Shown here piece after piece: positions 5,835-23,851 of a stretch of DNA of 40,155 nt. Source of the stretch: Escherichia phage HK544. The stretch lies in sequence record NC_019767.1, one strand, 5' to 3'. The position numbers and the translations under genes were made by a program. A model generated the notes under the pieces. It was given only the letters and a program-made list of their open reading frames with translations, was not told the origin of the DNA and searched no databases. Positions within the stretch are counted from its first letter, which is position 1; each line of letters starts with the position of its first letter.

Positions 5835-6280
5835 TTGAGACGAGCCTCGATTTTTCCGGGTTAAATGACATCGCAAAGGATCTGGAGGCGCTTAGCCGCG
5901 CTGAAAACAATAAGGTTCTTCGTGATGCCACCCGCGCCGGCGCGGAAGTGCTTAAGGAAGAAGTGATCGCCCGCGCTCCGGTGCGTACCGGGAAACTGAA
6001 AAAAAACGTGGTGGTGGTGACCCAAAAAAGCCGTCGCCGCGGGGAAATTTCTTCCGGCGTCCATATTCGTGGCGTTAACCCGCGCACCGGAAACAGCGAT
6101 AACACGATGAAGGCTAATAACCCGAGAAACGCCTTTTACTGGCGATTCGTTGAGCTGGGTACCGCGAACATGCCTGCACATCCGTTTGTGCGACCCGCTT
6201 ACGATACTCGCGAGGAAGAGGCCGCCAGCGTCGCCATTGCCAGGATGAATCAGGCTATTGATGAGGTATTGAGCAAGTGA
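5831..6280 (+). CDS. HK97 gp10-like tail component
   Basis: 149-aa ORF with ATGA overlap to the upstream gene; position and size. Confidence 0.5.
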   Translation: MIETSLDFSGLNDIAKDLEALSRAENNKVLRDATRAGAEVLKEEVIARAPVRTGKLKKNVVVVTQKSRRRGEISSGVHIRGVNPRTGNSDNTMKANNPRNAFYWRFVELGTANMPAHPFVRPAYDTREEEAASVAIARMNQAIDEVLSK

Positions 6281-6683: not shown

Positions 6684-7388
6684 ATGTCTGCACTTTATGA
6701 AAAATCGCAGCTGACGAAGATCCTTATTTCCTCCCTGCCGTCCACCAAAGAAACGATGGATTCCGCCACCTTTCTCGATCTGAGTTGCACCATCAAAGAA
6801 ATTCAGTTCACTGGTGGCCAGAAGCAGGATATCGACGTAACAACACTTTGCTCTACCGAGCAGGAGAACATCAACGGCCTGCCTTCTCCGTCAGAAATCT
6901 CTCTGTCCGGCAACTTCTACAATAATCCAGCGCAGGACGCCTTGCGTGATGCGTATGACAACGACACCACTTACGGCTTCCAGATCATCTTCCCGTCAGG
7001 TAATGGTTTTAAGTTCCTGGCCGAAGTTCGCCAGCATACCTGGTCATCTGGTACCAATGGTGTTGTGGCAGCTACATTCTCACTGCGCCTTAAAGGCAAG
7101 CCTGTCCCGATTGACTCTGTACTTAAACTGACCACTGATCTTCCTTCCTCACTGTCTGTAGCGGTGGGGGCTGCGATCAGCATGGCTGTAGTAGCTGCCG
7201 GTGGTAAGCCTCCGTATGCCTACACCTGGAAGAAGGCAGGTAGCACCGTCAGCGGGCAGACATCCGATACCTTTAATAAAGCCACCGCAGTTTCAGGTGA
7301 TGCAGGTGATTACACCTGTGTGGTTACGGATTCTTCTTCTCCGGTCAAAACGGTTACCTCAGCTGCCTGCACCCTTACTATCAGTTAA
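6684..7388 (+). CDS. major tail protein with C-terminal Ig-like domain
   Basis: 234 aa, SD GGAGA upstream; C-terminal segment PPYAYTWKKAGS...GDAGDYTCVVTD resembles Ig-like decoration domains fused to lambda-V-type tail tube proteins. Confidence 0.7.
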   Translation: MSALYEKSQLTKILISSLPSTKETMDSATFLDLSCTIKEIQFTGGQKQDIDVTTLCSTEQENINGLPSPSEISLSGNFYNNPAQDALRDAYDNDTTYGFQIIFPSGNGFKFLAEVRQHTWSSGTNGVVAATFSLRLKGKPVPIDSVLKLTTDLPSSLSVAVGAAISMAVVAAGGKPPYAYTWKKAGSTVSGQTSDTFNKATAVSGDAGDYTCVVTDSSSPVKTVTSAACTLTIS

Positions 7389-7422
7389 TGGAGATGCCGG
7401 GTTGTCCCGGCATGGATAAGCG

Positions 7423-7809
7423 ATGTCGCAAACTTTAAAACAATTAGCCATGGCGAAAATGGCTGGCTTTCGCCATAAGACGGTCGTTGTCCCTGAGTGG
7501 GAAGGTGTCAAAGTGGTTCTCCGTGAGCCGTCAGGTGAAGCCTGGCTGCGCTGGCAGGAGGTGGTGAAAGGGGGGGGCGACGATGAAAATGTGTCGGTAT
7601 CGGAAAAGGCGCACCGTAATCTTTGCGCTGACGTGGTGCTCTTCATTGACGTTCTGTGTGACACCGATAAGCAACCGGTATTCAGCGTAGACGAAGAAGA
7701 GCAGGTGCGTGAAATTTACGGGCCAGTGCACTCACGTCTGCTCAAACAGGCGCTTGACCTGATCAACAATGCGGACGAAGCGCGGGAAAAGTCTCAACCC
7801 CCGGCGTAA
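7423..7809 (+). CDS. tail assembly chaperone (lambda G-like)
   Basis: 128-aa ORF between major tail protein and tape measure; acidic; followed by an overlapping -1-frame ORF (G/G-T arrangement). Confidence 0.65.
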   Translation: MSQTLKQLAMAKMAGFRHKTVVVPEWEGVKVVLREPSGEAWLRWQEVVKGGGDDENVSVSEKAHRNLCADVVLFIDVLCDTDKQPVFSVDEEEQVREIYGPVHSRLLKQALDLINNADEAREKSQPPA

Positions 7810-8096
7810 AGTTTCTGATGTCGCTTGCGCTCCGGATGGGGCGCACGCTCTCAGAGCTTCGGCAGAATATGACGGCAAGCGAGCTTCTGATGTGGATTGA
7901 GTACGACAGGCAAAGCCCGGTTGGCGATATTCGCGGTGATATCCATGCAGCGCAGATTGTCTCTGCCATCTACGGCTCGCAGGGGGCAAAAGTACCGCTG
8001 GACGATGCGATCCTGCGCTGGGGTGGTGATGAGCAATCAGAACCGAAGGACCCGTTTGCAGGGCTTGAGGCGGCACTTACAGCTGCGACACAATAA
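7758..8096 (+). CDS. tail assembly chaperone frameshift extension (lambda T-like), expected as a G-T fusion via -1 frameshift
   Basis: The -1 frame relative to G is open from 7758 to 8096 with no need for its own start; G ends at 7809; GGGAAAAG at 7784-7791 resembles the lambda G-T slippery site. Confidence 0.5.
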   Translation, partial: PDQQCGRSAGKVSTPGVKFLMSLALRMGRTLSELRQNMTASELLMWIEYDRQSPVGDIRGDIHAAQIVSAIYGSQGAKVPLDDAILRWGGDEQSEPKDPFAGLEAALTAATQ

Positions 8097-8153
8097 TTGC
8101 TTCACATGCCTTCAATGTAGCGATACGCTCTTTCCTTAAGTAAAGGAGGCGTT

Positions 8154-8342
8154 ATGGAACCACTGGTAGTAGTGTTTGGAATATTCGGCTGGCTGATAAA
8201 TCTAATTGTGATTTTTTATTTATTACGGTTTAGCACAAGGGCAAATGAACAAGTTGAAGCCCTTAAAGAGATAAATAAAAAGCAAGATGCGCAAATAGAT
8301 TTATTAATACAAGTCGCTCACCAAAGAAAAGACAGTTTATAA
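8154..8342 (+). CDS. small membrane protein (moron), N-terminal TM helix plus short coiled-coil
   Basis: 62 aa; strong SD AAGGAGG; hydrophobic N-terminus VVVFGIFGWLINLIVIFYLL; visibly AT-rich compared with flanking tail genes; own terminator downstream; paralogue of 13498..13722. Confidence 0.5.
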   Translation: MEPLVVVFGIFGWLINLIVIFYLLRFSTRANEQVEALKEINKKQDAQIDLLIQVAHQRKDSL

Positions 8343-8348
8343 CTCACG

Positions 8349-8372
8349 ACCCGCTATCAAGCGGGTTTTTTT
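8349..8372 (+). terminator. rho-independent terminator after the moron
   Basis: ACCCGC-TATCAA-GCGGGT hairpin followed by TTTTTTT. Confidence 0.55.
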
Positions 8373-8384
8373 ATGGGTGAAAAT

Positions 8385-11300
8385 ATGGCTACGTTGCGCG
8401 AACTGATCATCAAAATATCTGCAAACTCTCAGTCATTCCAGTCTGAAATTTCTCGTGCTTCAAGAATGGGGAATGACTATTACCGGGTAATGCAGACTGG
8501 AGGACGCCAATCGGCCGCAGCTTCGCGTGAAACTCAGCGTGCCTTGGCTGAGGTAACTAGTCAAATAAACACCGCGAAGGCCTCAGCACTGGGAATGGCT
8601 GGTGCATTTGCTGGAGCATTTGCCACTGGACATCTTATATCTCTTGCGGATGAATGGAGCTCAGTAAATGCCCGTCTGAAGCAGGCCACGCAGTCCAGCG
8701 ATGATTTCCAGGCATCACAGCGCGAATTAATGGCGATCAGCCAGAGAACGGGTACTGCTTTTGCTGATAACGCCAGTCTTTTTGCACGTTCGGCTTCTTC
8801 CATGCGGGAATATGGTTACAGGTCTGAGGAAGTACTGAAAGTTACCGAGGCCATTTCTACAGGATTGAAATTGTCCGGAGCCAGTTCTGCGGAAGCCAGC
8901 TCGGTGATCACTCAGTTCAGCCAGGCACTGGCGCAAGGGGTTCTGCGCGGTGAAGAGTTTAATTCAGTAAATGAAAGCGGTGATCGTGTTATTCGTGCTC
9001 TGGCTGCAGGAATGGGGGTTGCCCGTAAAGATCTGAAGGCAATGGCGGATGATGGAAAGCTGACCGCCGATAAGGTTGTTCCTGCACTGATTAGTCAGCT
9101 TGGTACGCTGCGGGATGAATATGCAGCCATGCCTGATACCGTATCATCCTCTGCAACCAAAGTTGAAAACGCCTTTATGGCCTGGGTTGGTGGTGCGAAT
9201 GATGCCAGCGGTGCAACAAAAACGCTTACCGGAATAATGAATGGTGTTGCGAATAATATTGATACGGTTGCCACGGCGGCGGGAGCTCTGGTTGCAATTG
9301 GTGTAGCCCGATATTTTGGCAATATGGCGTCTTCTGCGGGCTCTGCAACTGCCGGGTTAATCACTGCTGCCAGAAACGAAGTGGCTCTTGCTGAGGCACA
9401 GCTCAGAGGGACACAGATAGCAACAGCCAGAGCGCGGGCGGCATTGTATCGTGCGCAGCAGGCGGTTATGGCTGCCCGTGGTACAGAAAAACAGGCTGCA
9501 GCAGAAGCGAAACTGGCAACCGCACAGGCTTCACTTACCCGTAATATTGCTGCCAGAACAGCGGCACAGGCAACGCTGAATAACGTTACGTCAGTTAGTA
9601 GTCGGTTGTTAAGCGGTGCTCTGGGGCTGGTTGGTGGTGTGCCTGGACTTGTCATGCTGGGGGCGGCGGCCTGGTACACAATGTATCAGAACCAGGAGCA
9701 GGCCAGAGAATCAGCGCGTCAGTATGCCGCAACAATCGACGAAATTCGCCAGAAAACGTCTGCAATGTCACTTCCTGAAGCGGCAGATAATGAAGAAAAG
9801 ACGCGGCAGGCACTGGAGGAACAAAATCGCCTGATTAGAGAACAGGAAGGAAAAATTCGCGGACTGAAAAATCAAATTGCTGATTATCAACGTTGGCTTG
9901 ATGAAAGTTCGCAGAGTGGTTCGGGTGCTGAAATCATCCTTAAAGGGCTTGCCGAAGCAACAAATCAACTGGCAGTTGAACAGTCTCGCCTCACTCAAAT
10001 GCAGGGCAAAGCGCAATCCATTCAGGATGTGCTTGCCGGGCTGGAGGAGCGACGAGTGGCGTTGATCCGTCAACAGGCAGCGGAACAAAACAAAGCGTAT
10101 CAGTCCCTGTTGATCATGAATGGGCAGCATACCGAGTTTAATCGCCTTCTCGGGCTTGGTAATGAATTACTTCAGCAGCGACAGGGGCTGGTGAATGTAC
10201 CATTACGGCTGCCACAGGCAACCCTGGATGATAAACAGCAGACCGCACTGAATAACAGCAAGCGCGAACTGGCTCTGTCCCGCCTTAAGGGGGAAGCGCG
10301 TGAGCGTGCCCGACTGGGCTATGCTGCGGATGATCTCGGCTTTGTGGGGGAGGCATATCAGACAGCCAGACAGAATTATATCAATAACTCACTGGATGCC
10401 TGGCGAAATAACCAGGCAAATAAACCCAAAGCGCATAAAAAGACCGAAGCGGAAAAAACAGAAGATATTTATAAACGGCTGATTAAACAGCAAAAAGAAC
10501 AGATAGCACTGGCAGGGCAGAATACTGAACTGGCTAAGATGAAATATCAGGTCAGTCAGGGCGAACTTGCTTCTCTGACAGAAGCCCAGAAAAAGACGGT
10601 ATTGCAGAATGCTGCGCTGATTGACCAGGTTAAATTGCGTGAGCAACTGCGAAATTACGAAGCCAACCTTGCTGACAGTAACGCCAGCGCCCGCGCAGCC
10701 AATGAAGCGCAACTGCTGGGCTACGGGCAGGGAACCAGGTTCCGTGAAAGACTTCAGGAGCAGTTCAATCTGCGTAAGGAGTTTGAGCAGAAGAATACCG
10801 ATCTTCTCCGCCAGCGTCAGGCTGGTGAAATCGACGAGACGTTCTATCAGCAGGGGCTGGCACTTAATAAGCGCTACCTCGAAGAGCGCCTGCGCGACCA
10901 GGAGGGATATTACGCAGCTTCTGATGCGCAGCGTGACGACTGGATGACGGGACTGTCTGAGGGTTATGCGAACTGGGTGGACGAAGCTACTGATTATTCT
11001 TCCATGGCCGCTGACGGCATGAAGCAGGCCATGGGTGGCGCGGTCACCACGATCACCGACATGCTCAATGGCAACGTTGACAGCTGGAAGGACTGGGGCG
11101 TGAGCGTACTGAAGATCATCCAGAACGTTCTGGTGAACATGGCTGTTGCTAACGGCGTCAGTTCAATTGGTTCTCTCTTCAGCTTTGGCGCATCTTCCGC
11201 CGCTGCCGCCAGTAGCGGTACTGCAATTCAGAACGCTGGCGCGAACTTCACCTTTAACGCGAAGGGTAATGTTTACGACTCTCCGTCCCTGAGCGCATAC

Positions 11301-11642
11301 AGCAATGGCGTGTTTCAGACCCCTCAGCTTTTTGCTTTTGCCAAAGGAGCGGGTGTGTTTGCAGAGGCTGGACCTGAAGCCATTATGCCGCTTACCCGTG
11401 CTGCTGATGGTTCGCTTGGCGTTCGGGCTGTTGGCACTGGTGGTGGTCAGGCTGTATCTTCGGCTCCACAGGTTTACATCACCATCGATGGCAACGGAAA
11501 TACTTCCACGCAGACTTCACCCGGCCTTGAGCAATTTGGTGCTGATGTCGGTAAATATATTGATCAGCGATATAAGCAGAACATCATGCGAGATATTCGC
11601 CCTGGCGGTGACATCTGGAACGCAATGAAAGGAACCCGATAA
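8385..11642 (+). CDS. tail tape measure protein (lambda H-like)
   Basis: About 1085 aa, largest ORF of the tail cluster, Ala/Gln-rich coiled-coil with hydrophobic segments; follows G/G-T. Start taken at ATG 8385 (SD GGGTGA); in-frame ATG at 8373 lies inside the terminator T-run. Confidence 0.85.
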   Translation: MATLRELIIKISANSQSFQSEISRASRMGNDYYRVMQTGGRQSAAASRETQRALAEVTSQINTAKASALGMAGAFAGAFATGHLISLADEWSSVNARLKQATQSSDDFQASQRELMAISQRTGTAFADNASLFARSASSMREYGYRSEEVLKVTEAISTGLKLSGASSAEASSVITQFSQALAQGVLRGEEFNSVNESGDRVIRALAAGMGVARKDLKAMADDGKLTADKVVPALISQLGTLRDEYAAMPDTVSSSATKVENAFMAWVGGANDASGATKTLTGIMNGVANNIDTVATAAGALVAIGVARYFGNMASSAGSATAGLITAARNEVALAEAQLRGTQIATARARAALYRAQQAVMAARGTEKQAAAEAKLATAQASLTRNIAARTAAQATLNNVTSVSSRLLSGALGLVGGVPGLVMLGAAAWYTMYQNQEQARESARQYAATIDEIRQKTSAMSLPEAADNEEKTRQALEEQNRLIREQEGKIRGLKNQIADYQRWLDESSQSGSGAEIILKGLAEATNQLAVEQSRLTQMQGKAQSIQDVLAGLEERRVALIRQQAAEQNKAYQSLLIMNGQHTEFNRLLGLGNELLQQRQGLVNVPLRLPQATLDDKQQTALNNSKRELALSRLKGEARERARLGYAADDLGFVGEAYQTARQNYINNSLDAWRNNQANKPKAHKKTEAEKTEDIYKRLIKQQKEQIALAGQNTELAKMKYQVSQGELASLTEAQKKTVLQNAALIDQVKLREQLRNYEANLADSNASARAANEAQLLGYGQGTRFRERLQEQFNLRKEFEQKNTDLLRQRQAGEIDETFYQQGLALNKRYLEERLRDQEGYYAASDAQRDDWMTGLSEGYANWVDEATDYSSMAADGMKQAMGGAVTTITDMLNGNVDSWKDWGVSVLKIIQNVLVNMAVANGVSSIGSLFSFGASSAAAASSGTAIQNAGANFTFNAKGNVYDSPSLSAYSNGVFQTPQLFAFAKGAGVFAEAGPEAIMPLTRAADGSLGVRAVGTGGGQAVSSAPQVYITIDGNGNTSTQTSPGLEQFGADVGKYIDQRYKQNIMRDIRPGGDIWNAMKGTR

Positions 11643-11644
11643 AA

Positions 11645-11983
11645 ATGGCTATCGAAACTTTCACCTGGTGCCCACGACTTAACGCTGAGGCAGATATAAA
11701 TTTCCGCGTCAGGAAAGCACAGTTTGGCGATGGATATGAGCAGGTTTCAGGGGATGGATTGAACACCAGAATCCAGCAATGGACGCTCAACTTCACTGGC
11801 AACGAAACCTACATTTCTGCCATTAAATCTTTTCTCGACAGGCATGAAGGAACGAAAGCCTTTCAATGGAAGCCGCCGCTCGAGCCTTTGGGTTTGTATC
11901 GTTGCGAAACGTATAAACCCACCGGGCTGGGTGCGGGAAAATTCAACCTTGAAGCAACATTCATCCAGGCATTTAAACCATGA
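11645..11983 (+). CDS. minor tail protein (lambda M-like)
   Basis: 112 aa directly after tape measure; contains FGDGY motif as in lambda gpM; conserved order H-M-L-K-I-J. Confidence 0.65.
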   Translation: MAIETFTWCPRLNAEADINFRVRKAQFGDGYEQVSGDGLNTRIQQWTLNFTGNETYISAIKSFLDRHEGTKAFQWKPPLEPLGLYRCETYKPTGLGAGKFNLEATFIQAFKP

Positions 11984-12738
11984 GCTTAAACGCAGACTAT
12001 CAGAAGCTTGAATCCGGAAACGATGTTCGTCTGATTGAGGTGGACGGTTCTTCCTTTGGGCTAACGGACGTTCTCCGCTTTCACAATTACCGCATTCCCC
12101 ACACGGAAGCGGAAATCATCGCCGCTGGTGGGGATGAGTCCAAGCTTCCGGCGAAACCAATCTGGTGGCAGGGAAATGAATACGCCGCCTGGCCGTATCA
12201 GCTGGAAGGCCTGGAAAAATCAACCAGTGGGAGCAATGCAACGCCATCACTGACGGTTGCGAACATCGAAAGCTCTATTTCTGCCATGTGTCTTGCGTAT
12301 GACGATCTGCTGCAGGCGAAAGTCACTATTCACGACACAAAAGAGAAATATCTCGATGCCAGAAATTTCGCGGACGGCAACCCCACAGCAGACCCGACTC
12401 AGGAAAAGCTGCAGGTCTGGTATATCGACGGGAAAACTGGCGAGCTTGCCGGTGAAACCGTTGAATTTGTTCTGTCCAGCCCGATGGACCTGCAGGGGCA
12501 AATGATCCCGACGCGACAGCTTCATTCCCTGTGTACCTGGTGCATCCGGAATAAATATCGTACCGGCGACGGCTGCGACTATGCCGGCACCCGCAATTTC
12601 GATAAAAACAACAACCCGGTAAGCGATCCGTCGCTGGATGAATGCAATGGCACGCTGACGGCCTGCAAACTCCGATTCGGCGAAAATAACGAACTCTCGT
12701 TTGGTGGCTTCCCGGGCACGTCTTTGATCAGGAGTTGA
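11980..12738 (+). CDS. minor tail protein (lambda L-like)
   Basis: 252 aa, ATGA overlap with M; Cys-rich C-terminus (CTWC...C...C) as in lambda gpL. Confidence 0.65.
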   Translation: MSLNADYQKLESGNDVRLIEVDGSSFGLTDVLRFHNYRIPHTEAEIIAAGGDESKLPAKPIWWQGNEYAAWPYQLEGLEKSTSGSNATPSLTVANIESSISAMCLAYDDLLQAKVTIHDTKEKYLDARNFADGNPTADPTQEKLQVWYIDGKTGELAGETVEFVLSSPMDLQGQMIPTRQLHSLCTWCIRNKYRTGDGCDYAGTRNFDKNNNPVSDPSLDECNGTLTACKLRFGENNELSFGGFPGTSLIRS

Positions 12739-12739
12739 T

Positions 12740-13450
12740 ATGCGTCAGAAAACCATAGATGCGATTATGGCGCATGCTGCAGCTGAATATCCTCTTGAGT
12801 GTTGCGGCGTGGTGGCGCAGAAAAGCCGCGTTGAACGTTATTTCCCGTGCCGGAATCTTGCCGCGGCGCCGGAGGACAATTTTGTCCTTTGCCCCGAAGA
12901 CTACGCAGCTGCTGAGGACTGGGGAACGGTGATCGCCATCGTTCACAGTCACCCTGACGCCACAACGCAGCCGAGCGAACTGGATAAAGCGCAATGCGAC
13001 GCAACGCTTTTACCCTGGCATATTGTGAGCTGGCCGGAGGGGGATTTACGCACCATCCAGCCGCGCGGAGAACTGCCACTGCTGGAGCGTCCGTTTGTGC
13101 TTGGACACTTCGACTGCTGGGGGCTGGTAATGAGCTATTTCCGGCAAACGCATGGTATCGAGCTCCACGATTACCGGGTGGATTATCCCTGGTGGGAAAA
13201 CGCCTATCCGGACAATTTTTATCAGGATTGCTGGTATGAATGCGGATTCAGGGAGTTTGACGGCCCGCCTCAGGAAGGGGACCTCGTCATCATGCAGGTG
13301 CAGGCCGATAAGTGGAATCATGCCGGGATTTTACTGGAGGGTAACATGCTGCTGCACCACCTGTACGGACATCTGAGCCAGCGCGTGCCGTATGGTGGCT
13401 ACTGGCAGGAAAGGACGATGAAGATTCTTAGACATCAGAATTTTATTTAA
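12740..13450 (+). CDS. tail assembly protein K (MPN/JAB plus NlpC/P60-like domains)
   Basis: 236 aa; N-terminal ECCGVV...HSHP (JAB/MPN-like) and a C-terminal Cys/His segment; position after L. Confidence 0.7.
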   Translation: MRQKTIDAIMAHAAAEYPLECCGVVAQKSRVERYFPCRNLAAAPEDNFVLCPEDYAAAEDWGTVIAIVHSHPDATTQPSELDKAQCDATLLPWHIVSWPEGDLRTIQPRGELPLLERPFVLGHFDCWGLVMSYFRQTHGIELHDYRVDYPWWENAYPDNFYQDCWYECGFREFDGPPQEGDLVIMQVQADKWNHAGILLEGNMLLHHLYGHLSQRVPYGGYWQERTMKILRHQNFI

Positions 13451-13497
13451 CAAACTGTCACTGATACTATCGTGTAGTACACAGCAAGGAGAACGAT

Positions 13498-13722
13498 ATG
13501 TATACAGTTGGGTTTGGTTGGATCTTCGTCGGTATTTTTATTGGGTTAATTCTCTGGTTTTTCATCAACCGCGCCAGCGTCAGAGCGAACAGGCAGGTTG
13601 AATTACTTGAGTCTATCGACCAGAAATTATCAAAAATAGTAGATCCAAACTTCGAGGCAAATAACAAAGACCAGTCGAAAGAAAACTACCTTGAAGAAGC
13701 AAGGAAAAAAGCTGGGCTTTGA
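13498..13722 (+). CDS. small membrane protein (moron), paralogue of 8154..8342
   Basis: 74 aa; SD AAGGAGA; N-terminal TM helix FGWIFVGIFIGLILWFFI then RANRQVELLESIDQK, matching RANEQVEALKEINKK in the 8154 ORF; own terminator downstream. Confidence 0.5.
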   Translation: MYTVGFGWIFVGIFIGLILWFFINRASVRANRQVELLESIDQKLSKIVDPNFEANNKDQSKENYLEEARKKAGL

Positions 13723-13737
13723 GAGCGTAAATTAACA

Positions 13738-13760
13738 AACCACCTACGGGTGGTTTTTTT
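13738..13760 (+). terminator. rho-independent terminator after the second moron
   Basis: AACCACC-TACG-GGTGGTT hairpin followed by TTTTTTT. Confidence 0.55.
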
Positions 13761-13771
13761 ATGGGGGCAGC

Positions 13772-14380
13772 ATGCAAGAGGTAATGACAAGAATTGAGCT
13801 AAGTGGCGTGCTAGCTAAGACATATGGAAGGGTTCATCACCGTCTGGTTCGCACTACTGCTGAAGCCATTAATGCACTCGCGAAAACCATCAATGGATTC
13901 GAGAAATTCTTAAACACAAGCAAGGCCCGAGGGCTGACGTATGCCGTTTATAGAGATAAAAAGAATATTGGCGTTGATGATCTCGGCTTTCCCGTCACCG
14001 GCGAAGTGATCCGGATTGTCCCTGTAGTAATAGGGAGTAAAAAGGCTGGTCTTTTGCAGACGATCCTGGGGGCCGTGCTTATTACTGCTGCTGTGTTGAC
14101 TGGCCCCGGCGGTATTGGCGCTGCTTTCGCTGCTGGTGGATTGACGGGGTTTGCTGCTGCCACTGGTGCCTCGTTGGTCCTCGGTGGGGTTATTCAGCTG
14201 CTTTCACCGCAGCCATCAGGCATAGCCAGTAAACAAAGCGCAGATAACCGTGCATCGTATGCGTTTGGCGGGGTAACCAACACTGCAGAGCAAGGCTACC
14301 CAGTGCCTCTGCTTTATGGTAAGCGTCGAATCGGCGGAGCGATTATTTCTGCCGGAATTTATGTCGAAGATCAGCAGTAG
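13772..14380 (+). CDS. tail assembly protein (lambda I-like)
   Basis: 202 aa with Gly/Ala-rich hydrophobic C-terminal half, between K and J as in lambda. Confidence 0.6.
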   Translation: MQEVMTRIELSGVLAKTYGRVHHRLVRTTAEAINALAKTINGFEKFLNTSKARGLTYAVYRDKKNIGVDDLGFPVTGEVIRIVPVVIGSKKAGLLQTILGAVLITAAVLTGPGGIGAAFAAGGLTGFAAATGASLVLGGVIQLLSPQPSGIASKQSADNRASYAFGGVTNTAEQGYPVPLLYGKRRIGGAIISAGIYVEDQQ

Positions 14381-14432
14381 ATAACAAACCTTTTTACAAG
14401 CCACCTCCGGGGGGCTTTTTTATGGACGCAAT

Positions 14433-17400
14433 ATGGCAACTGCAACCGCGATTAAAGGCCGCAAAGGCGGTAGTTCAAAGACACGCACTCCAACTGAACA
14501 GCCCGATGATCTGCAGTCAGTTGCGAAGGCGAAAATTTTAATCGCCCTTGGCGAGGGCGAGTTCTCCGGGCAATTAACCGGCAAAGATATCTACCTGGAC
14601 GGAACAGCGCTGGAGAACGCCGACGGCTCCCAAAACTTCAGCGGCGTTACGTGGGAATTTCGCGCGGGAACGCAGGCGCAAAAATATATTCAGGGTATTC
14701 CCGGTACCGAAAACGAGATCAGCGTAGGAACTGAGGTATCAAGTGCCACAGCCTGGACGCGCACGTTTACCAATACGCAGCTTTCAGCAGTTCGCCTGCG
14801 TCTTAAATGGCCCTCGCTTTTCAAACAGGAAGACGACGGCGATCTGGTGGGTTACTCGGTCAATTATGCGATTGACCTGCAGACTGACGGCGGCACATGG
14901 CAGACGGTACTCAATACCAGCGTGACCGGCAAAACGACGTCTGGTTATGAGCGCAGCCACCGTATCGATTTACCGCAGGCTGGCAGCACCTGGACAATAC
15001 GTCTGCGTAAGATTACCTCTGACGCCAACAGCGCGAAGATCGGCGACACGATGATGCTGCAGAGCTTCACCGAGGTGATTGACGCCAAACTGCGCTACCC
15101 GAACACCGCGCTGCTCTACGTCGAATTCGACTCAAGCCAGTTCAACGGCTCTATTCCTCAAATTTCATGCGAACCGCGCGGCCGCGTTATCCGCGTTCCA
15201 GATACCTACGACCCTGAAACCCGCACTTATAGCGGTACATGGACCGGTGCGTTTAAGTGGGCATGGACGGATAACCCTGCGTGGATTTTTTACGACCTGG
15301 TTGTTTCTGACCGGTTCGGCCTTGGGCACCGTTTGACCGCTGCGAATATTGATAAATGGACGCTTTATCAGGTTGCTCAGTATTGTGATCAGATGGTGCC
15401 AGACGGCAAAGGGGGCAACGGTACAGAACCACGTTATACCTGCAACGTGTACATCCAGGATCGGAACGACGCCTACACAGTCCTGCGTGATTTTGCCGCT
15501 ATCTTCCGTGGCATGACCTACTGGGGCGGGGATCAGATTGTGGCCCTGGCTGACATGCCGCGCGATGTTGATTACAGCTATACGCGCGCTAACGTTGTTG
15601 GCGGTCGCTTCACCTATTCGAGCAGCACCACGAAAAGCCGCTACACCACAGCGCTGGTTTCATGGTCAGACCCGGGTAACGCTTATGCCGACGCGATGGA
15701 GCCGGTATTTGAGCAGGCGCTGGTGGCGCGGTACGGCTTCAATCAGCTGGAAATGACAGCCATCGGCTGCACCAGGCAGTCAGAGGCGAACCGAAAGGGG
15801 CGCTGGGGTATTCTCACCAATAACAAGGATCGCGTTGTTTCGTTTGATGTCGGGCTGGACGGAAACATTCCGCAGCCGGGCTACATCATCGCCGTGGCAG
15901 ACGAGCTGCTTTCCGGAAAGGTTATGGGCGGCCGCATCAGCGCCGTTAACGGTCGCGTTATCAAACTTGACCGCGTAGCTGATGCAACACCAGGTGATCG
16001 CCTTATTCTCAACCTTCCCTCCGGAGCGTCGCAGAGCAGGACCATTCAGGCCGTGAACGGGGAATCAGTCACAGTCACCACGGCATACAGTGAGACGCCA
16101 CAGGCCGAAGCTGTTTGGGTGGTTGAATCTGACGAGCTCTACGCGCAGCAGTATCGAGTTGTCAGCGTTTCCGATAACAATGATGGCACTTTCTCGATTA
16201 CCGGCGCATGGCACGACCCGGATAAATATGCCCGTATCGATACCGGAGCCATCATTGACCAACGGCCGGTGAGCGTGATCCCGCCGGGCAACCAGTCGCC
16301 GCCTACGAATATCGTGATCAGCTCGTTTTCCGTGGTTCAGCAAAATATCAGCGTCGAAACAATGCGCGTGAGCTGGTACCAGGCGCAGAACGCTATCGCC
16401 TATGAAGCACAATGGCGCCGCAACGACGGGAACTGGGTTAACGTGCCGCGCACCTCCACCACGTCATTCGACGTCCCGGGGATTTATGCCGGGCGCTACC
16501 TGGTGCGGGTGCGCGCAATCAATGCCGCAGAAATTTCATCCGGATGGGGCTATTCAGAAGAGAAAACGCTGACGGGTAAAGTGGGCAATCCACCGAAGCC
16601 GGTTGGCTTTATCGCCTCTGAAAACGTGGTGTTCGGTATCGAGCTGAACTGGGGATTCCCGGCGAATACCGACGACACGCTGAAGACGGAAATTCAGTAC
16701 AGCCTGACCGGGAGCGAAGATGATGCCATTCTTCTGAGCGATGTTCCCTATCCGCAGCGCAAGTATCAGCAGATGGGCCTGAAGGCGGGGCAAATTTTCT
16801 GGTACCGGGCGCAGCTGGTGGACAGGACAGGCAATGAGTCGGGTTATACCGACTGGGTACGTGGACAGGCCAGTATCGATGTGTCGGATATCACCGATGT
16901 TATCCTGGAGGACATTAAAGAATCGGACACGTTCAAGGAACTGATCGAAAGCGCAGTAGACAGCAACGAAAAAATTGCTGGTATGGCTGACGATATCAGA
17001 CAGAACGCTGACGATCTGGAGCAACAGGCGCTGGCCATCAAGGAAAACGCCGATGGGCTCGCCCAGGCCGAGGTGAAGATTGACGAAATCTCTGTCTCGA
17101 TGGATGGCATGACGGGAGGCGTTAAAAACTCCTCTATCGCGGTTATTCAGAACAGCCTCGCGCAGGTCACCAGCCGTCGATCCCAGACAGCCACCAACGC
17201 CGGGAACAGCGCCAGCATCGACCGTATCGATACCACCATTGCAGATACCAGCCAGGCGGTTGCCCGTGCGCTGGTTACGCTTGATGCTTCTGCCGGTGGT
17301 AATGTCTCAAACGCGACCGATCTCACCGAAACCCTTGCTGATTTCACGCAGGCCTCGGCCACGAAAATCAACTCCCTGACGGTTACGGTAAACGGCCAGA

Positions 17401-17888
17401 CAGCGGCTATTAACCAGACCGCGCAGGCGGTGGCTGATGTGAACGGTAACCTCAGCGCGATGTACAACATCAAGGTTGGTGTCTCCAGCAACGGGCAGTA
17501 TTACGCCGCGGGGATGGGTATCGGCGTGGAGAATACGCCATCCGGCATGCAGTCGCAGGTTATCTTCCTGGCTGATCGCTTCGCCGTCACCACGGCAGCC
17601 GGAAATAGCGTGGCTTTGCCGTTTGTGATCCAGAATGGACAGACATTCATCCGGGCCAGTTTCATCCAGGACGGCACTATCAGCAACGCAAAGATTGGTA
17701 ATTTTATCCAGTCGAACAATTATGTTGCTGGTTCTGCTGGCTGGAAGCTTGATAAAGGGGGGACGTTTGAGAACTACGGTTCGACTGCTGGTGAGGGAGC
17801 CATGAAACTGACAAATCAGACGATCAGCGTCAAAGATGGCAGTAATGTTCTTAGGGTGCAGGTTGGCCGATTAACGGGAGTATTCTGA
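14433..17888 (+). CDS. J: central tail fibre / host specificity protein J
   Basis: 1151 aa; blocks such as KTTSGYERSHRIDL and GTEPRYTCNVYIQ resemble lambda J as recalled; C-terminal region appears divergent. Confidence 0.85.
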   Translation: MATATAIKGRKGGSSKTRTPTEQPDDLQSVAKAKILIALGEGEFSGQLTGKDIYLDGTALENADGSQNFSGVTWEFRAGTQAQKYIQGIPGTENEISVGTEVSSATAWTRTFTNTQLSAVRLRLKWPSLFKQEDDGDLVGYSVNYAIDLQTDGGTWQTVLNTSVTGKTTSGYERSHRIDLPQAGSTWTIRLRKITSDANSAKIGDTMMLQSFTEVIDAKLRYPNTALLYVEFDSSQFNGSIPQISCEPRGRVIRVPDTYDPETRTYSGTWTGAFKWAWTDNPAWIFYDLVVSDRFGLGHRLTAANIDKWTLYQVAQYCDQMVPDGKGGNGTEPRYTCNVYIQDRNDAYTVLRDFAAIFRGMTYWGGDQIVALADMPRDVDYSYTRANVVGGRFTYSSSTTKSRYTTALVSWSDPGNAYADAMEPVFEQALVARYGFNQLEMTAIGCTRQSEANRKGRWGILTNNKDRVVSFDVGLDGNIPQPGYIIAVADELLSGKVMGGRISAVNGRVIKLDRVADATPGDRLILNLPSGASQSRTIQAVNGESVTVTTAYSETPQAEAVWVVESDELYAQQYRVVSVSDNNDGTFSITGAWHDPDKYARIDTGAIIDQRPVSVIPPGNQSPPTNIVISSFSVVQQNISVETMRVSWYQAQNAIAYEAQWRRNDGNWVNVPRTSTTSFDVPGIYAGRYLVRVRAINAAEISSGWGYSEEKTLTGKVGNPPKPVGFIASENVVFGIELNWGFPANTDDTLKTEIQYSLTGSEDDAILLSDVPYPQRKYQQMGLKAGQIFWYRAQLVDRTGNESGYTDWVRGQASIDVSDITDVILEDIKESDTFKELIESAVDSNEKIAGMADDIRQNADDLEQQALAIKENADGLAQAEVKIDEISVSMDGMTGGVKNSSIAVIQNSLAQVTSRRSQTATNAGNSASIDRIDTTIADTSQAVARALVTLDASAGGNVSNATDLTETLADFTQASATKINSLTVTVNGQTAAINQTAQAVADVNGNLSAMYNIKVGVSSNGQYYAAGMGIGVENTPSGMQSQVIFLADRFAVTTAAGNSVALPFVIQNGQTFIRASFIQDGTISNAKIGNFIQSNNYVAGSAGWKLDKGGTFENYGSTAGEGAMKLTNQTISVKDGSNVLRVQVGRLTGVF

Positions 17889-17889
17889 A

Positions 17890-18192
17890 ATGGCTTATGG
17901 AATACAGACCTGGGATGCTTCAGGAAAACCCAACAACTATGGCATCAAACCCGTTTCCGTCGTTGGGCGAATACAGCTGGCTGCCGGGCAAACCTCCGGC
18001 AGCTGGTCTTTTACGGTGCCCTCAGGAATGAAAGTTGGTTTTGTTCTTTCACTTGATGAAGGAGGTAACAGCGTAGGGCGGCGCATTGTCGCGTCAGGGA
18101 GCACAATAACCGTAAGCGCTGCATCTTCTGTAGGTCTGGGTAATTATCCGGCCTCAAAGTGTGAAGTGGTCGTTTTCATGGAGAAAGCATAA
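17890..18192 (+). CDS. hypothetical protein downstream of J (likely tail-associated)
   Basis: 100 aa, start 2 nt after J stop; shares a WD(A/S)SGK motif with the next ORF. Confidence 0.4.
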   Translation: MAYGIQTWDASGKPNNYGIKPVSVVGRIQLAAGQTSGSWSFTVPSGMKVGFVLSLDEGGNSVGRRIVASGSTITVSAASSVGLGNYPASKCEVVVFMEKA

Positions 18193-18830
18193 TGGCCGAA
18201 TTTGGCGCGATGATATTAATGGACAACGGGAACCCATTTGTAACGCCCCAGTCAACGCCTTTTTGTCTTTACGGCAAGTACACTTTCAACTCCTCTGCTA
18301 ATGGCAGTTCGCAGCAGGTTGCTCAGAATATTGCATTAAATGCTGACTACCCTGTGATGGTATTTATCAGGACCACAAATACCGCCCAGCCCACGCCAGT
18401 AATATCTTACCGGAACGGCGGAAATATATATGTCGCGGGGGTTAATCCCTATAACCAGAGCTTCACGTTAACCGCATATATTTTTGCCATATTTCCCCAG
18501 ATGTTACCGAAATGGGGGATGGCCATCTGGGATTCGAGCGGGAAGCTGGTACTCACTAATGAGTCCCGCGTGCTGTCAGACTTGCAGACAATCGGAACGC
18601 CTGGAGCAAACGGCGGGATTAACATTGACCAGACGCTTGATGGTTCATGGGCAGTGGCTCCATCAAGGCTGGGGCAAGTGAACAGAAACGACGCTTACTC
18701 ATCTTGTAGGTATTCAGGCACAAGTACAAGAATAAACGCCGGTACAGCCGCAAATACACCTGGCGGTGCTGGAGGGGTGATAAATAATGGAATTATCCTG
18801 ACAGCAATTAAAACAGACGCCTATGATTGA
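18192..18830 (+). CDS. hypothetical protein downstream of J (likely tail-associated)
   Basis: 212 aa, TAATG overlap with the previous ORF; AIWDSSGK motif; Gly/Asn-rich C-terminus. Confidence 0.4.
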   Translation: MAEFGAMILMDNGNPFVTPQSTPFCLYGKYTFNSSANGSSQQVAQNIALNADYPVMVFIRTTNTAQPTPVISYRNGGNIYVAGVNPYNQSFTLTAYIFAIFPQMLPKWGMAIWDSSGKLVLTNESRVLSDLQTIGTPGANGGINIDQTLDGSWAVAPSRLGQVNRNDAYSSCRYSGTSTRINAGTAANTPGGAGGVINNGIILTAIKTDAYD

Positions 18831-18937
18831 TTATTTTGAGCGATCAATAACAAATAATTTATCTATCTAATCAATTATACCCATCGATTATGTATTGGTA
18901 TCTTCGAAGCTACTGAATACCTCTGGATACTATCAAA

Positions 18938-19171
18938 ATGAAAAGGCTAATTATCTGCATAGCGGGCGCTTTAATGCTGTCTGGTTGCGCTGGTGTACTT
19001 GAGAAACAGAAACCGATTTGCAGCGGCACGGCATATATGGGTGGCCATGAGAATACCGTTATGATTTACGCCGTTCGAAAGCAAAACAACCAGACGCAAT
19101 ACCGGGCCGGATATCCCTTTAACTGGCGCTGGGTAAGTGCGAACACATTCACAAGCACGACATGTAAATAA
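18938..19171 (+). CDS. small lipoprotein moron, possibly a Cor-like exclusion protein
   Basis: 77 aa with signal peptide and lipobox LSGC (Cys17); AT-rich promoter-like leader 18831-18937; own terminator; location next to tail fibre genes is where cor-type genes are found. Confidence 0.45.
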   Translation: MKRLIICIAGALMLSGCAGVLEKQKPICSGTAYMGGHENTVMIYAVRKQNNQTQYRAGYPFNWRWVSANTFTSTTCK

Positions 19172-19185
19172 CTCATGATTTTCAA

Positions 19186-19217
19186 TGCAAACCTCGCCTC
19201 GGCGGGGTTTTTTATTG
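19186..19217 (+). terminator. rho-independent terminator after the lipoprotein gene
   Basis: CCTCGCC-TCGG-CGGGG hairpin followed by TTTTTTATT. Confidence 0.45.
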
Positions 19218-19229
19218 CCTGGAGAAAAT

Positions 19230-20504
19230 ATGCTTTATAACACTGGAACCATCGCCATTAACGGAAACAGCGCCACCGGCACGGGCACGAACTGGACGGC
19301 ACCCGCCAGCCAGGTTCGCGCTGGTCAGACGATTATCGTGATGTCTAACCCGGTGCAGCTGTTTCAGATTTCATCCGTGAACAGCGCCACGTCAATGACG
19401 GTTACTCCAGCTGCTTCCCCGGCGCTGAGCGGCCAGAAGTACGGCATTCTGGTATCAGACATTATCTCGGTTGATGGACTGGCACAGGCCATGTCTCAGC
19501 TCATCAATGAGTATGACGAGAATATCGGTGCGTGGGAAACGTTCGCCAGTACCTCAGCGAACCAACTGGTCACTGTGACAATCAACGGCACCAGCCTCAG
19601 CATTCCTGCCATCGGTGGTCTCGCCCGGAAAGGGGCAAATAGCGATATCACAGAGCTGAAAGGGCTAAGTACAGCATTGAGTATTGACCAGGGTGGGACC
19701 GGCGCAAAAACCAAAGAAGCCGCTCGCACAAACCTCGGTTTAGGAAGTAGTGCCACTCGTGACGCGTATAGCACTTCTGGTTCAATGCTCGCAGTCGGAG
19801 ATTTCGGGGTCGGCAGCAATAGTATGAATAGGATTACTCAGGATGACCGCGTAGGGGCTGGGTTCTATCGATCATTAATGTTACTTGGTGGCTTAGGCGA
19901 TAACGTTTCGTTGATCGAAGTGCCGTATGATGCCAACACCATGTATCAGTTAATCATCCCAACTATTATCGCCACAAAGCCTAAGTTGTACTTAAGAACG
20001 TTGAGTAGTGATGAGACTTATAACGGGCAACTTGTCGAATTTTACAGCACAGGAAATACTACAAAGGCCAGTGACGGCACACTAAAAGTAGCATCGCCAG
20101 TCGTCAAAATATTTAGCGATGGTTCATTCCATTTGAATGATGAGTCAGCAGGATGCACTGTAACCCGTATTAATACCGGAGCATATCTCATTGAAGGCTG
20201 TATGGGGCTTAATGCTGATGCCGCGTGGGGAGGCATAGACGGCGGTTTTGATATCCCCACTGACCGCAACAAGCAGCCGCTGATTTGGCTCGATTATGAA
20301 GTTAATGCGGACGGTTCCATTTTGGTTAGAACTTATCATCGCACATATCCAACCGCCCCAGTATTCGCCAGAAATGAACGAGACGGAATCGAAGAGGGGG
20401 AGCCGGTAGATATCCCTGCCGATCAGTTCGTTTCCGTGCGCGTAGAAATGCCGGCTGACTCTGTTTACAGCCGGAGCTTGCATGAGCGCGGGAATGAGAG
20501 CTAA
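19230..20504 (+). CDS. tail fibre protein
   Basis: About 424 aa from ATG 19230 (SD GGAG); the ORF-track start at 19185 lies inside the terminator. Contains a QGGTGAKT...ARTNLGLGS motif typical of tail fibres. Confidence 0.55.
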   Translation: MLYNTGTIAINGNSATGTGTNWTAPASQVRAGQTIIVMSNPVQLFQISSVNSATSMTVTPAASPALSGQKYGILVSDIISVDGLAQAMSQLINEYDENIGAWETFASTSANQLVTVTINGTSLSIPAIGGLARKGANSDITELKGLSTALSIDQGGTGAKTKEAARTNLGLGSSATRDAYSTSGSMLAVGDFGVGSNSMNRITQDDRVGAGFYRSLMLLGGLGDNVSLIEVPYDANTMYQLIIPTIIATKPKLYLRTLSSDETYNGQLVEFYSTGNTTKASDGTLKVASPVVKIFSDGSFHLNDESAGCTVTRINTGAYLIEGCMGLNADAAWGGIDGGFDIPTDRNKQPLIWLDYEVNADGSILVRTYHRTYPTAPVFARNERDGIEEGEPVDIPADQFVSVRVEMPADSVYSRSLHERGNES

Positions 20505-20570
20505 TCATGATTTTGTCCATTTTTTTTTGATAAGCTTGGTGCAAATCAGCCAGAAAAAAAAGTACACAAC

Positions 20571-20969
20571 ATGAGCCAGTTAACGTTACATGAATTCGCA
20601 TCGATAAATTGTAAACTGAAAGATATCAGCGACACATGGTCAGATTTATGGGTTCTTCTGCATATCTTACCGGTCGGCATTGGTAGGGTGGTCAGTCTGC
20701 GTTACGGTAACCTTATAGGCGACTCCCTTGTCGTGGAGGCGAACGGAAGATTTGAAGAGAAAATCCTATCTGTACCAGCCGTTGTTCGCCACATTGTACA
20801 GAGGCGCAGGGACAAATATCCCCACGATGTTTACGTTTTTCAGAGTCACTCCAACCGGGTCAAATTTCAGCAAAGGCCAGTAACAGTTATTGCATTCAAC
20901 CAGGCATTGAAGATTGCCTCCAAAGGAGTGACGGATAAGGTGGTGAGCAGCAAAAGTGCTCGATGGTAG
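20571..20969 (+). CDS. hypothetical protein (cargo in the tail-fibre to int interval)
   Basis: 132-aa ORF; no confident family assignment; faint resemblance to the region between box I and box II of tyrosine recombinases but without the catalytic residues. Confidence 0.3.
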   Translation: MSQLTLHEFASINCKLKDISDTWSDLWVLLHILPVGIGRVVSLRYGNLIGDSLVVEANGRFEEKILSVPAVVRHIVQRRRDKYPHDVYVFQSHSNRVKFQQRPVTVIAFNQALKIASKGVTDKVVSSKSARW

Positions 20970-21059
20970 TTCGCCATCAAGAGGTGTTTTCGGGGTGATC
21001 ACGTACATCATCAATGATGCACGTTATGGTGAGTTTGATGACTACCCGCTGAAGTGAAA

Positions 21060-21370
21060 ATTGTGTTGTGTACCAAATTGCGTACCAAACTAAAATCACA
21101 AATCATGAAACCCTTGTTCATGGCGGTTCTCAGGGGTGTTTCGCGTAATCGTGAAAGAGGAAGGTAGGTTGTTTATCTGTGTCTGTCATTGTCTAGCATT
21201 GTCCACTGTAGTTAATTAACTGTCTGTTATAACTCGAAAAACAACCATTTTTTCACCTGAGTATGTCTACGAACGTCAAATATAGTTGTTTACTGTGCGC
21301 TGTTGTCCATGTGATATTGTGTACCAGATGTGTACCAACCCATTATTTCTGAGCGTACCAAATACTATTT
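21060..21370. other. candidate attP region with integrase arm-type repeats
   Basis: Five copies of (T/C)GTACCA(A/G) at 21070, 21082, 21321, 21332 and 21355; 12-bp perfect palindrome AGTTAATTAACT at 21210-21221; CATTGTC direct repeat at 21187 and 21197; noncoding, immediately upstream of int. Confidence 0.35.
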
Positions 21371-22549: not shown

Positions 22550-22721
22550 CGCCACCGTTAAGAATCCACCCTTCAACAGCTTCACGAAGGTATGATTTGG
22601 GGTGGGTTCTGACTGGCTTCGGAAATCCGTGCCGTTTGGTATAGTTCCAGATTGTCTGACGTGATGAAACACCGAGCTTGTTCATCACTTCTTTCTCAGG
22701 AATCAGGCTGGTATCGGTCAT
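22530..22721 (-). CDS. xis: AlpA-family DNA-binding protein / putative excisionase
   Basis: 63 aa with winged-helix-like segment KEVMNKLGVSSRQTIWNYTKRHGFPKP; convergent with int and overlapping its 3' end by 20 nt. Confidence 0.6.
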   Translation of the reverse strand: MTDTSLIPEKEVMNKLGVSSRQTIWNYTKRHGFPKPVRTHPKSYLREAVEGWILNGGVNQKCS

Positions 22722-22764
22722 CTTAATTCTCCAGGCAAAAAGAAACCGCCATATAGCGGCTCTA

Positions 22765-23828: not shown

Positions 23829-23851
23829 AATGGAATCCTTATGTTGCTACT

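What the first reader, a model, noticed from the sequence alone, without database searches (positions are those of the whole stretch)
8154..8372. Moron 1 in the tail operon: small TM plus coiled-coil protein with its own SD and terminator, between G-T and tape measure
In lambda, T is followed directly by H. Here a 62-aa ORF with a strong SD (AAGGAGG), an N-terminal membrane helix and a charged coiled-coil tail is inserted, followed by its own hairpin terminator. Its sequence is visibly AT-rich relative to neighbouring tail genes, which suggests horizontal acquisition. It has a paralogue at 13498..13722, so the same small-protein family was inserted twice in one tail cluster.
Basis: seen in the sequence. 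Interest (0 to 1): 0.6.

Follow-up and report, generated by a model that had tools for sequence, protein, structure and literature searches.

The report
HK97 gp15 moron, rediscovered

Summary
A 62-aa ORF (8154..8342) has an AAGGAGG Shine-Dalgarno, an N-terminal membrane helix and a -13 kcal/mol hairpin plus T7 run. At 33% GC it is the most AT-rich stretch of the window.

The window is a cos-to-cos HK97-like coliphage genome. The cassette matches HK97 gene 15 ("moron product") except for two bases; the protein is 61/62 identical to HK97 gp15 and 100% identical to HK75 gp15.

Gene 15 is the element for which the word "moron" was coined. Cumby, Davidson and Maxwell showed that it is expressed from the prophage and acts as an inner-membrane superinfection-exclusion protein of the YebO family.

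The paralogue (13498..13722) is also real and known: it is HK022 gp20, annotated "moron gene product". It is intact here but carries an amber codon in HK97.

Things I found that I could not locate in the papers searched:
- Both subfamilies are under strong purifying selection.
- They stay AT-rich despite near-saturated synonymous divergence.
- In every context read they sit in tail operons with an HK97-type tape measure.
- They are bridged by a Klebsiella/Pantoea form at the T-H junction.

The coiled-coil claim and the promoter remain unproven. Novelty: already known. Interest is low.

The parts
7423..7809 (+). Tail assembly chaperone (lambda G analogue; HK97 gp13)
   Evidence: phrog_344/14766 'tail assembly chaperone'; corresponds to HK97 gene 13
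7818..8096 (+). T part of the G-T frameshift product (HK97 gp14); left border of the insertion site
   Evidence: phrog_337/14766. HK97 gp14 is annotated 'translated due to a -1 frameshift'. PGAP names it 'phage tail assembly protein T'.
8101..8129 (+). Candidate sigma-70 promoter TTCACA-N17-TACGCT (weak, 8 of 12; not proven)
   Evidence: Found by a relaxed scan; the stricter scan found nothing here. A counterpart, TTCACA-N17-TACGAT, is present in the diverged Citrobacter cassettes but not in the Raoultella or Klebsiella ones.
8143..8149 (+). Shine-Dalgarno AAGGAGG, 4 nt before the ATG
   Evidence: Read directly from the sequence
8154..8342 (+). Gene 15 moron ORF: a 62-aa YebO-family single-pass inner-membrane protein, with the TM helix at about residues 5-23 and a helical charged tail at 24-62
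   Evidence: Function in HK97 is taken from PMC3594210.
8348..8372 (+). Intrinsic-terminator-like hairpin (8348..8367) and T run (to 8372)
   Evidence: dG -13.0 kcal/mol. HK97 annotates a 'terminator putative' at the same place.
8385..11642 (+). Tail tape measure protein (HK97 gp16/H type); right border of the insertion site and the genetically implicated target region of gp15 exclusion
   Evidence: 71% identical to HK97 H. The N- and C-terminal thirds are nearly identical and the middle has diverged. Start placed at 8385 by correspondence with the HK97 annotation. Escape of HK022-tail hybrids is cited in PMC10883804.
13462..13470 (+). Candidate extended -10 (TGATACTAT) upstream of the second moron (not proven)
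13498..13722 (+). Second YebO-family moron ORF (74 aa), equal to HK022 gp20; intact here, amber-interrupted in HK97
   Evidence: Purifying selection against Serratia and metagenome homologues.
13737..13763 (+). Terminator-like hairpin and T7 run of the second moron
   Evidence: dG -12.2 kcal/mol. HK97 annotates a 'terminator putative' here.

Best explanation
The feature is the gene 15 moron of an HK97-like (Hendrixvirinae) temperate coliphage. It is an autonomous mini-cassette made of a weak promoter (inferred), a strong SD, a 62-aa ORF and an intrinsic terminator. It sits in the 288-nt gap between the tail assembly gene T and the tape measure gene.

In the lysogen the cassette is transcribed on its own, and its terminator keeps that transcript out of the repressed tail operon. 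During lytic growth the late transcript reads through the terminator. That step is inferred from established Q-type antitermination of lambdoid late transcription.

The product inserts into the inner membrane through its N-terminal helix. The positive-inside rule predicts that the conserved helical tail lies in the cytoplasm. The protein blocks genome injection by superinfecting HK97-type phages after they adsorb, without touching the outer-membrane receptor. Specificity is set by the incoming phage's tail-tube and tape-measure region.

What is shown and what is inferred:
- Shown here: the anatomy, the near-identity to HK97 and HK75 gp15, the empty sites in relatives, purifying selection, and constant linkage to HK97-type tape measure genes.
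- Taken from the literature on HK97: prophage expression, and exclusion at the DNA-entry step.
- Inferred: the promoter position, the topology, and a direct contact with the tape-measure channel.
For: - Cassette identity: window 8080-8400 matches HK97 except for one substitution (L14M) and one T. The protein is 100% identical to gp15 of HK75, HK446, mEp234, HK106, HK633 and mEpX1, and 98.4% identical to HK97 gp15. HK97 annotates it 'Gp15, moron product' with a putative terminator.
- Literature: gp15 was the first described moron. [quoted passage not shown] It is a diverged YebO homologue (PMC3594210). [quoted passage not shown]
- Family and structure: Pfam YebO at 38.7 bits against a cut-off of 27. 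TM helix at residues 5-23 followed by R25 and R29. One continuous helix, pLDDT 84.5.
- Composition and terminator.
- Empty sites in HK022 and phi467.
- Selection: dN/dS 0.05-0.17. The tail motif NKKQDAQIDLLIQ(I/V)AH is invariant across the 14 gp15-type rows of the alignment.
- Context: in the seven Citrobacter, Raoultella and related contigs read (L010-L016) and in Klebsiella phage P7641 (L009), the gene lies between T and the tape measure. In L010-L016 that tape measure carries PF06120.
Against: - No expression or exclusion data exist for this particular phage. Function is transferred from HK97 on 61/62 identity, and the one difference (L14M) lies in the TM helix.
- No strong sigma-70 consensus lies upstream. 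The best candidate scores 8 of 12 and is conserved only in the Citrobacter cassettes.
- The predicted N-out/C-in topology leaves only about 4 residues in the periplasm. How the protein meets an incoming tail is therefore unexplained, and the literature itself calls the mechanism unknown.
- The primary paper (Cumby et al. 2012, J Bacteriol) could not be read here, so details rest on the authors' own commentary and on later citing papers.
Confidence: 0.9

Rival explanations
1. The ORF encodes a conserved tail assembly or structural component, for example a membrane-associated helper of the tape measure, and is not accessory cargo.
For: Homologues occupy the same T-H junction in Citrobacter, Klebsiella, Raoultella and Pantoea prophages and are under purifying selection.
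Against: HK022 and phi467 have the same junction with no gene in it. Other relatives carry unrelated cargo there: a 97-aa ORF in SaltyDalty and a reverse-strand 139-aa ORF in E. coli ES5. The gene has its own terminator and aberrant composition. The literature assigns it a prophage-expressed exclusion role.
Confidence: 0.02
2. The protein mainly performs a YebO-like host-physiology function, that is, lysogenic conversion unrelated to phage entry. On this view exclusion is a side effect or is absent in this allele.
For: It belongs to Pfam YebO. Chromosomal yebO lies next to mgrB and cspC in E. coli K-12 and has no known function.
Against: gp15 resembles YebO only over the TM-proximal part (38% over 48 aa). 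Overexpression or deletion of E. coli YebO had no effect on HK97 (PMC3594210). The tail motif is conserved specifically within the phage subfamily and always sits next to an HK97-type tape measure.
Confidence: 0.05
3. The relevant feature is the hairpin terminator, acting as a regulatory attenuator that sets the chaperone to tape-measure ratio. On this view the ORF is a decaying passenger.
For: phi467 has a hairpin plus T run at the same junction with no ORF. HK97 annotates further putative terminators after genes 11 and 12.
Against: dN/dS is 0.05-0.17 with near-saturated synonymous divergence, and the start, SD and length are conserved. The protein has a published phenotype.
Confidence: 0.02

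Closest known systems
HK97 gp15 (gene 15 moron; Juhala et al. 2000; Cumby, Edwards, Davidson & Maxwell 2012)
   Same: Same gene, position, SD and terminator. The DNA is identical apart from 2 positions and the protein is 61/62 identical.
   Different: One conservative substitution in the TM helix, L14 here against M14 in HK97. The L14 allele is the one carried by HK75, HK446, mEp234, HK106, HK633 and mEpX1. The downstream tape measure is a mosaic, 71% identical to HK97 H.
HK022 gp20 ('moron gene product') / HK97 gene 20 pseudogene
   Same: The second copy at 13498..13722 is this gene: the protein is 100% identical to HK022 gp20 over the aligned residues 24-74, and the DNA of the cassette differs from HK022 at 2 of 341 positions, neither inside the ORF. 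It lies at the same K-I junction with the same terminator.
   Different: HK97 carries CAG->TAG at codon 33, whereas this window has the intact gene. I found no paper on its function in the library searched.
E. coli YebO (b1825; Pfam PF13974)
   Same: A single N-terminal TM helix followed by the motif R-x-S-x-R-x-N-x-Q and a helical charged tail. Both window proteins pass the Pfam gathering score.
   Different: YebO is chromosomal, 95 aa long and has a different C-terminal half. gp20 is much closer to it (73% over 30 aa, E = 1e-13) than gp15 is (38%, E = 1e-6). Deleting or overexpressing YebO does not affect HK97.
Other injection-blocking superinfection exclusion membrane proteins (P22 SieA, TP-J34 Ltp, Tuc2009 Sie2009)
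   Same: All are prophage-expressed envelope proteins that block DNA entry after adsorption. For Ltp and gp15, escape maps to the tape measure region (PMC10883804).
   Different: There is no sequence relationship. Ltp is a lipoprotein and SieA is a larger polytopic inner-membrane protein. gp15 is a 62-aa single-pass protein.
Lambdoid lysogenic-conversion morons in late operons (lambda lom and bor; HK022/N15/phi80 cor)
   Same: All are autonomous, compositionally aberrant cassettes expressed from the prophage within otherwise silent late regions.
   Different: They encode different proteins with different targets. Cor inactivates the FhuA receptor, whereas gp15 leaves receptors functional.

Membership tests
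Moron (as defined by Juhala et al. 2000, summarised in PMC3594210) | Extra DNA between two genes that are adjacent in related phages | tested here: met
   There are 288 nt between T and the tape measure in the window. The gap is 19 nt in HK022 and 45 nt in phi467. For the second copy, K and I abut in N15.
Moron (as defined by Juhala et al. 2000, summarised in PMC3594210) | Nucleotide composition different from the surrounding genes | tested here: met
   33.3% GC against 52-58% in the flanking genes, in the lowest 0.1% of windows
Moron (as defined by Juhala et al. 2000, summarised in PMC3594210) | Own transcription terminator | tested here: met
   Hairpin at 8348..8367 plus a T7 run, dG -13.0 kcal/mol. 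This is a prediction only; termination was not measured.
Moron (as defined by Juhala et al. 2000, summarised in PMC3594210) | Own promoter, with expression from the repressed prophage | tested here: inconclusive
   Only a weak candidate, TTCACA-N17-TACGCT at 8101..8129, which is partly conserved in the Citrobacter cassettes. Prophage expression is reported for HK97 and cannot be tested with these tools.
HK97 gp15 superinfection exclusion protein | Sequence identity to the characterised protein, at the same locus | tested here: met
   61/62 identical to HK97 gp15 and 62/62 to HK75 gp15, lying between T and H
HK97 gp15 superinfection exclusion protein | Single-pass inner-membrane protein | tested here: met
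   Hydrophobic stretch at residues 5-23, Kyte-Doolittle mean 2.53. AlphaFold gives a single helix. This is a prediction only.
HK97 gp15 superinfection exclusion protein | [quoted passage not shown] | not testable with these tools
   Taken from the literature only
YebO family (Pfam PF13974) | Score above the Pfam gathering threshold (27 bits) | tested here: met
   gp15 scores 38.7 bits and the second copy 47.7 bits. PGAP names both 'YebO family protein'.
   The moment at 102.9 degrees is not significant for gp15 (p = 0.096). It is significant for the first 20 tail residues of gp20 (p = 0.004). The best heptad register has 6 of 9 hydrophobic a/d positions. A monomer model cannot show oligomerisation.
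Known anti-phage defence systems (PADLOC-DB 2.0) | Match to any PADLOC model | tested here: not met
   No family matched either protein at E <= 1

The most novel reading that the evidence does not exclude
The intact second YebO-family moron (13498..13722, equal to HK022 gp20) may be a second injection-blocking exclusion protein, with a specificity different from gp15 or acting together with it.

Its role would have been invisible in the classic HK97 work, because HK97 carries an amber codon in this gene. On this reading, phage-borne YebO proteins would form a family of tape-measure-linked exclusion factors that travel with HK97-type tape measure genes and occupy two hot spots, T-H and K-I, in tail operons across Enterobacterales.

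Their persistent AT-richness, despite saturated synonymous divergence, would then be a selected property, for example for prophage-state expression, and not a trace of recent transfer.
Probability: 0.3. Interest if true: 0.4.

Novelty: already known. Interest (0 to 1): 0.15.

Why it matters
The result shows that a sequence-only reading can pick out a genuine moron and describe its anatomy correctly. The element itself is the founding example of the class and already has a published function, so nothing new follows from the finding as written.

What remains of modest value is the paralogue. This phage, like HK022, HK75 and most sequenced relatives, carries an intact gp20. The laboratory HK97 in which gp15 was characterised does not, and I found no functional study of gp20.

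Both subfamilies are strongly constrained, and in every context read they are linked to HK97-type tape measure genes. That makes gp20 a cheap and well-motivated candidate for a second exclusion activity. It also makes the family a handle on how siphophage tape measures cross the inner membrane.

Tried and rejected
- The primary paper (Cumby et al. 2012, J Bacteriol) could not be fetched by DOI or by PMC id. I relied on the authors' commentary, PMC3594210, and on citing papers.
- The strict sigma-70 scan found no promoter upstream of either moron. A relaxed scan gave only weak candidates.
- The coiled-coil test by heptad moment was not significant for gp15.
- PADLOC gave no match. The PDB profile search gave only chance-level hits, the best at E = 0.0012 against an unrelated 518-aa chain. 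Rfam gave no family in 7300..14500.
- No ORF of 30 aa or more lies on the minus strand under 8154..8342, so an antisense gene was rejected.
- A structural or assembly role was rejected because of the empty sites and the alternative cargo at the same junction.
- 'Two independent captures of host yebO' was rejected as the simplest history, for two reasons. The Klebsiella and Pantoea T-H proteins bridge gp15 and gp20. Both cassettes also share the 3' end GGTTTTTTTATGGG.
- One search failed on query length and was repeated.
- A fold search of the model was not run, because a single helix gives meaningless matches.

Full report
**What is there.** Window 8154..8342 (+) holds a 62-aa ORF, MEPLVVVFGIFGWLINLIVIFYLLRFSTRANEQVEALKEINKKQDAQIDLLIQVAHQRKDSL. 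AAGGAGG lies at 8143..8149, 4 nt before the ATG. After the stop there is a hairpin at 8348..8367 and a T run to 8372, with an RNAfold energy of -13.0 kcal/mol.

The ORF is 33.3% GC (GC3 28.6%). The neighbouring G, T and tape measure genes are 54%, 58% and 52% GC, and the whole window is 49.8%. Only 0.1% of 189-nt windows are as AT-rich.

Residues 5-23 form the hydrophobic maximum (Kyte-Doolittle mean 2.53). R25 and R29 follow it, which by the positive-inside rule puts the 39-residue charged tail in the cytoplasm (inference). AlphaFold, run on a 15-sequence alignment, gives one continuous helix over residues 2-61 with mean pLDDT 84.5.

No ORF of 30 aa or more lies on the opposite strand. No Rfam family is present in 7300..14500. 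The 'coiled-coil' label is not established: heptad periodicity of the tail is not significant (p about 0.1), and oligomerisation cannot be judged from a monomer model.

**What it is.** The window is a cos-to-cos genome of an HK97-like temperate coliphage. It is a mosaic whose nearest overall relatives are mEp234 and HK446 (65% coverage at 97% identity over 15200..40155).

Region 7400..8863 is 96% identical to HK97, HK75, HK106, HK446, HK633, mEp234 and mEpX1. It is 99.8-99.9% identical to prophages in two E. coli chromosomes.

In the HK97 GenBank record the ORF is gene 15, 'Gp15, moron product', followed by a 'terminator, putative'. The cassette DNA (8080..8400) differs from HK97 by one substitution (L14M) and one T in the terminator tail. 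The protein is 100% identical to gp15 of HK75, HK446, mEp234, HK106, HK633 and mEpX1.

It passes the Pfam YebO (PF13974) gathering score, 38.7 bits against 27. It falls in phrog_5031, and PGAP names it 'YebO family protein'.

[quoted passage not shown] They report the following:
- gp15 is expressed from the prophage and inserts into the inner membrane.
- It acts independently of repressor immunity.
- Its action depends on the incoming phage's tail region.
- It is a diverged YebO homologue, and E. coli YebO itself has no effect on HK97.
- The precise mechanism is unknown.

[quoted passage not shown] The primary 2012 paper could not be opened here.

**Insertion site.** HK022 goes from gp14 to the tape measure with a 19-nt gap. 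phi467, whose tape measure start is 80% identical to the window's, has a 45-nt gap. Interestingly, that gap carries its own hairpin plus T run.

Other relatives with the same G and T genes carry different cargo at this junction. SaltyDalty has a 97-aa ORF with a signal-peptide-like N-terminus. An E. coli ES5 prophage has a reverse-strand 139-aa ORF with a C-terminal hydrophobic segment. The T-H junction is therefore a cargo hot spot, and the gene is not an essential tail component.

**The paralogue.** ORF 13498..13722 (74 aa) is similar to gp15 (E = 5e-9). It hits YebO at 47.7 bits and the same PHROG. It has its own SD (AAGGAG at 13486..13491) and a terminator-like hairpin with a T7 run at 13737..13763 (dG -12.2 kcal/mol).

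It is HK022 gp20, annotated 'moron gene product'. It is intact in 24 phage records. Only HK97 has an amber codon, CAG->TAG at codon 33, which explains why the HK97 records have no gene 20 CDS. K and I abut in N15, and HK140 carries a different 113-aa ORF at that junction.

Both cassettes are rare in complete E. coli genomes: 6 and 7 of 5426.

**Beyond the annotation.**

(i) gp15-type proteins occur in Citrobacter, Klebsiella and Raoultella prophages at 73-86% identity. In the seven contigs read (L010-L016) the gene lies between T (PF06223) and an HK97-type tape measure (PF06120). The distal tail genes of those prophages differ.

(ii) Against these homologues dN/dS is 0.05-0.17, with pS of 0.66-0.70. 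All copies remain 31-35% GC inside flanks of about 50% GC. The tail motif NKKQDAQIDLLIQ(I/V)AH is invariant across the 14 gp15-type rows of the alignment. The gene is therefore old and constrained. Its AT-richness is maintained and is not a fading mark of recent transfer.

(iii) gp20-type proteins lie at the K-I junction in a metagenomic phage (76% identity) and in Serratia fonticola (66%). A 56% Pantoea relative lies at the T-H junction. Synonymous sites are saturated (pS 0.75-0.81) against pN of 0.16-0.26, so gp20 is a functional gene too.

(iv) A 77-aa protein at the T-H junction of Klebsiella phages bridges the two subfamilies. Its middle is gp15-like and its C-terminus (YLEEARKKAGL) is gp20-like. 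The Pantoea T-H cassette and the window's gene 15 cassette share a homologous 3' junction. The K-I cassette ends with the same GGTTTTTTTATGGG. The simplest history is one phage-borne YebO cassette that diverged and was copied to a second junction, not two separate captures from the host (inference).

**Mechanism.** The best-supported account has four steps:
- In the lysogen, a weak promoter drives the short transcript. The candidate is TTCACA-N17-TACGCT at 8101..8129, with a counterpart in the Citrobacter cassettes.
- The hairpin terminator stops that transcript before the tape measure gene.
- The protein sits in the inner membrane and blocks channel formation or DNA passage by incoming HK97-type tails.
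- In lytic growth, antiterminated late transcription reads through the terminator (established for lambdoid late operons; inferred here).

Confidence that this is the gp15 exclusion moron is about 0.9. The molecular contact remains open. The predicted topology leaves only about 4 residues in the periplasm, so any contact would have to involve the TM helix or the cytoplasmic tail.

**Verdict.** Novelty is 'already known' and interest is low. The only open thread is the untested intact gp20 paralogue and the family's tight linkage to HK97-type tape measures.

Noticed in passing
window 13498..13722; L001 7061..7159: The second YebO-family moron (HK022 gp20) is intact in this window and in 24 phage records. 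In HK97 it carries an amber codon (CAG->TAG, codon 33) and has no CDS in either HK97 record. The classic gp15 experiments were therefore done in a phage that lacks gp20 in non-suppressor hosts.
   Followed up: yes
L009 3983..4216; L022 5001..5243: The Klebsiella phage P7641 group and a Pantoea rwandensis prophage carry 77-80-aa YebO-family proteins at the T-H junction. These combine a gp15-like middle with the gp20-like C-terminus YLEEARKKAGL. The Pantoea 3' junction (T7-ATGGGATGAATATGGC) is homologous to window 8366..8390.
   Followed up: partly
window 8154..8342; L010 and L014 at 6001..6186: gp15-type genes stay at 31-35% GC inside flanks of about 50% GC even though synonymous sites are 66-70% different between them. 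The AT-richness is therefore maintained and not merely inherited from a recent donor.
   Followed up: partly
L005 2204..2497; L007 2218..2637 (-); L006 1455..1499: The T-H junction is a cargo hot spot. SaltyDalty carries a 97-aa ORF with a signal-peptide-like start, and E. coli ES5 a reverse-strand 139-aa ORF with a C-terminal hydrophobic segment. phi467 has no ORF there but still has a hairpin plus T run.
   Followed up: partly
window 8385..11642: The tape measure protein is a mosaic relative to HK97 H. Residues 1-300 and about 700-1085 are nearly identical, while the central third has diverged (71% identity overall).
   Followed up: no
window 14381..14432: Only 52 nt separate I and J here. 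The HK97 gp22/gp23 and HK022 gp22/srb morons at this junction are absent. The otherwise near-identical E. coli YZ_2_2 prophage has a reverse-strand 216-nt ORF there (L003 15101..15316).
   Followed up: no
L017 1681..2022: HK140 carries a different 113-aa ORF at the K-I junction, annotated as similar to a Pseudomonas putative phage lipoprotein. K and I abut in N15 (L018 1672). The K-I junction is therefore a second cargo hot spot.
   Followed up: partly
window 6684..7388: The major tail protein has a C-terminal Ig-like domain, with matches to Hoc-like and Ig_3 families over about residues 145-233.
   Followed up: no
window 18600..19000, 21200, 25200, 27400, 28400, 29600: Further low-GC islands rank among the 40 most AT-rich 189-nt windows. 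They may mark additional morons or accessory genes outside the tail operon.
   Followed up: no
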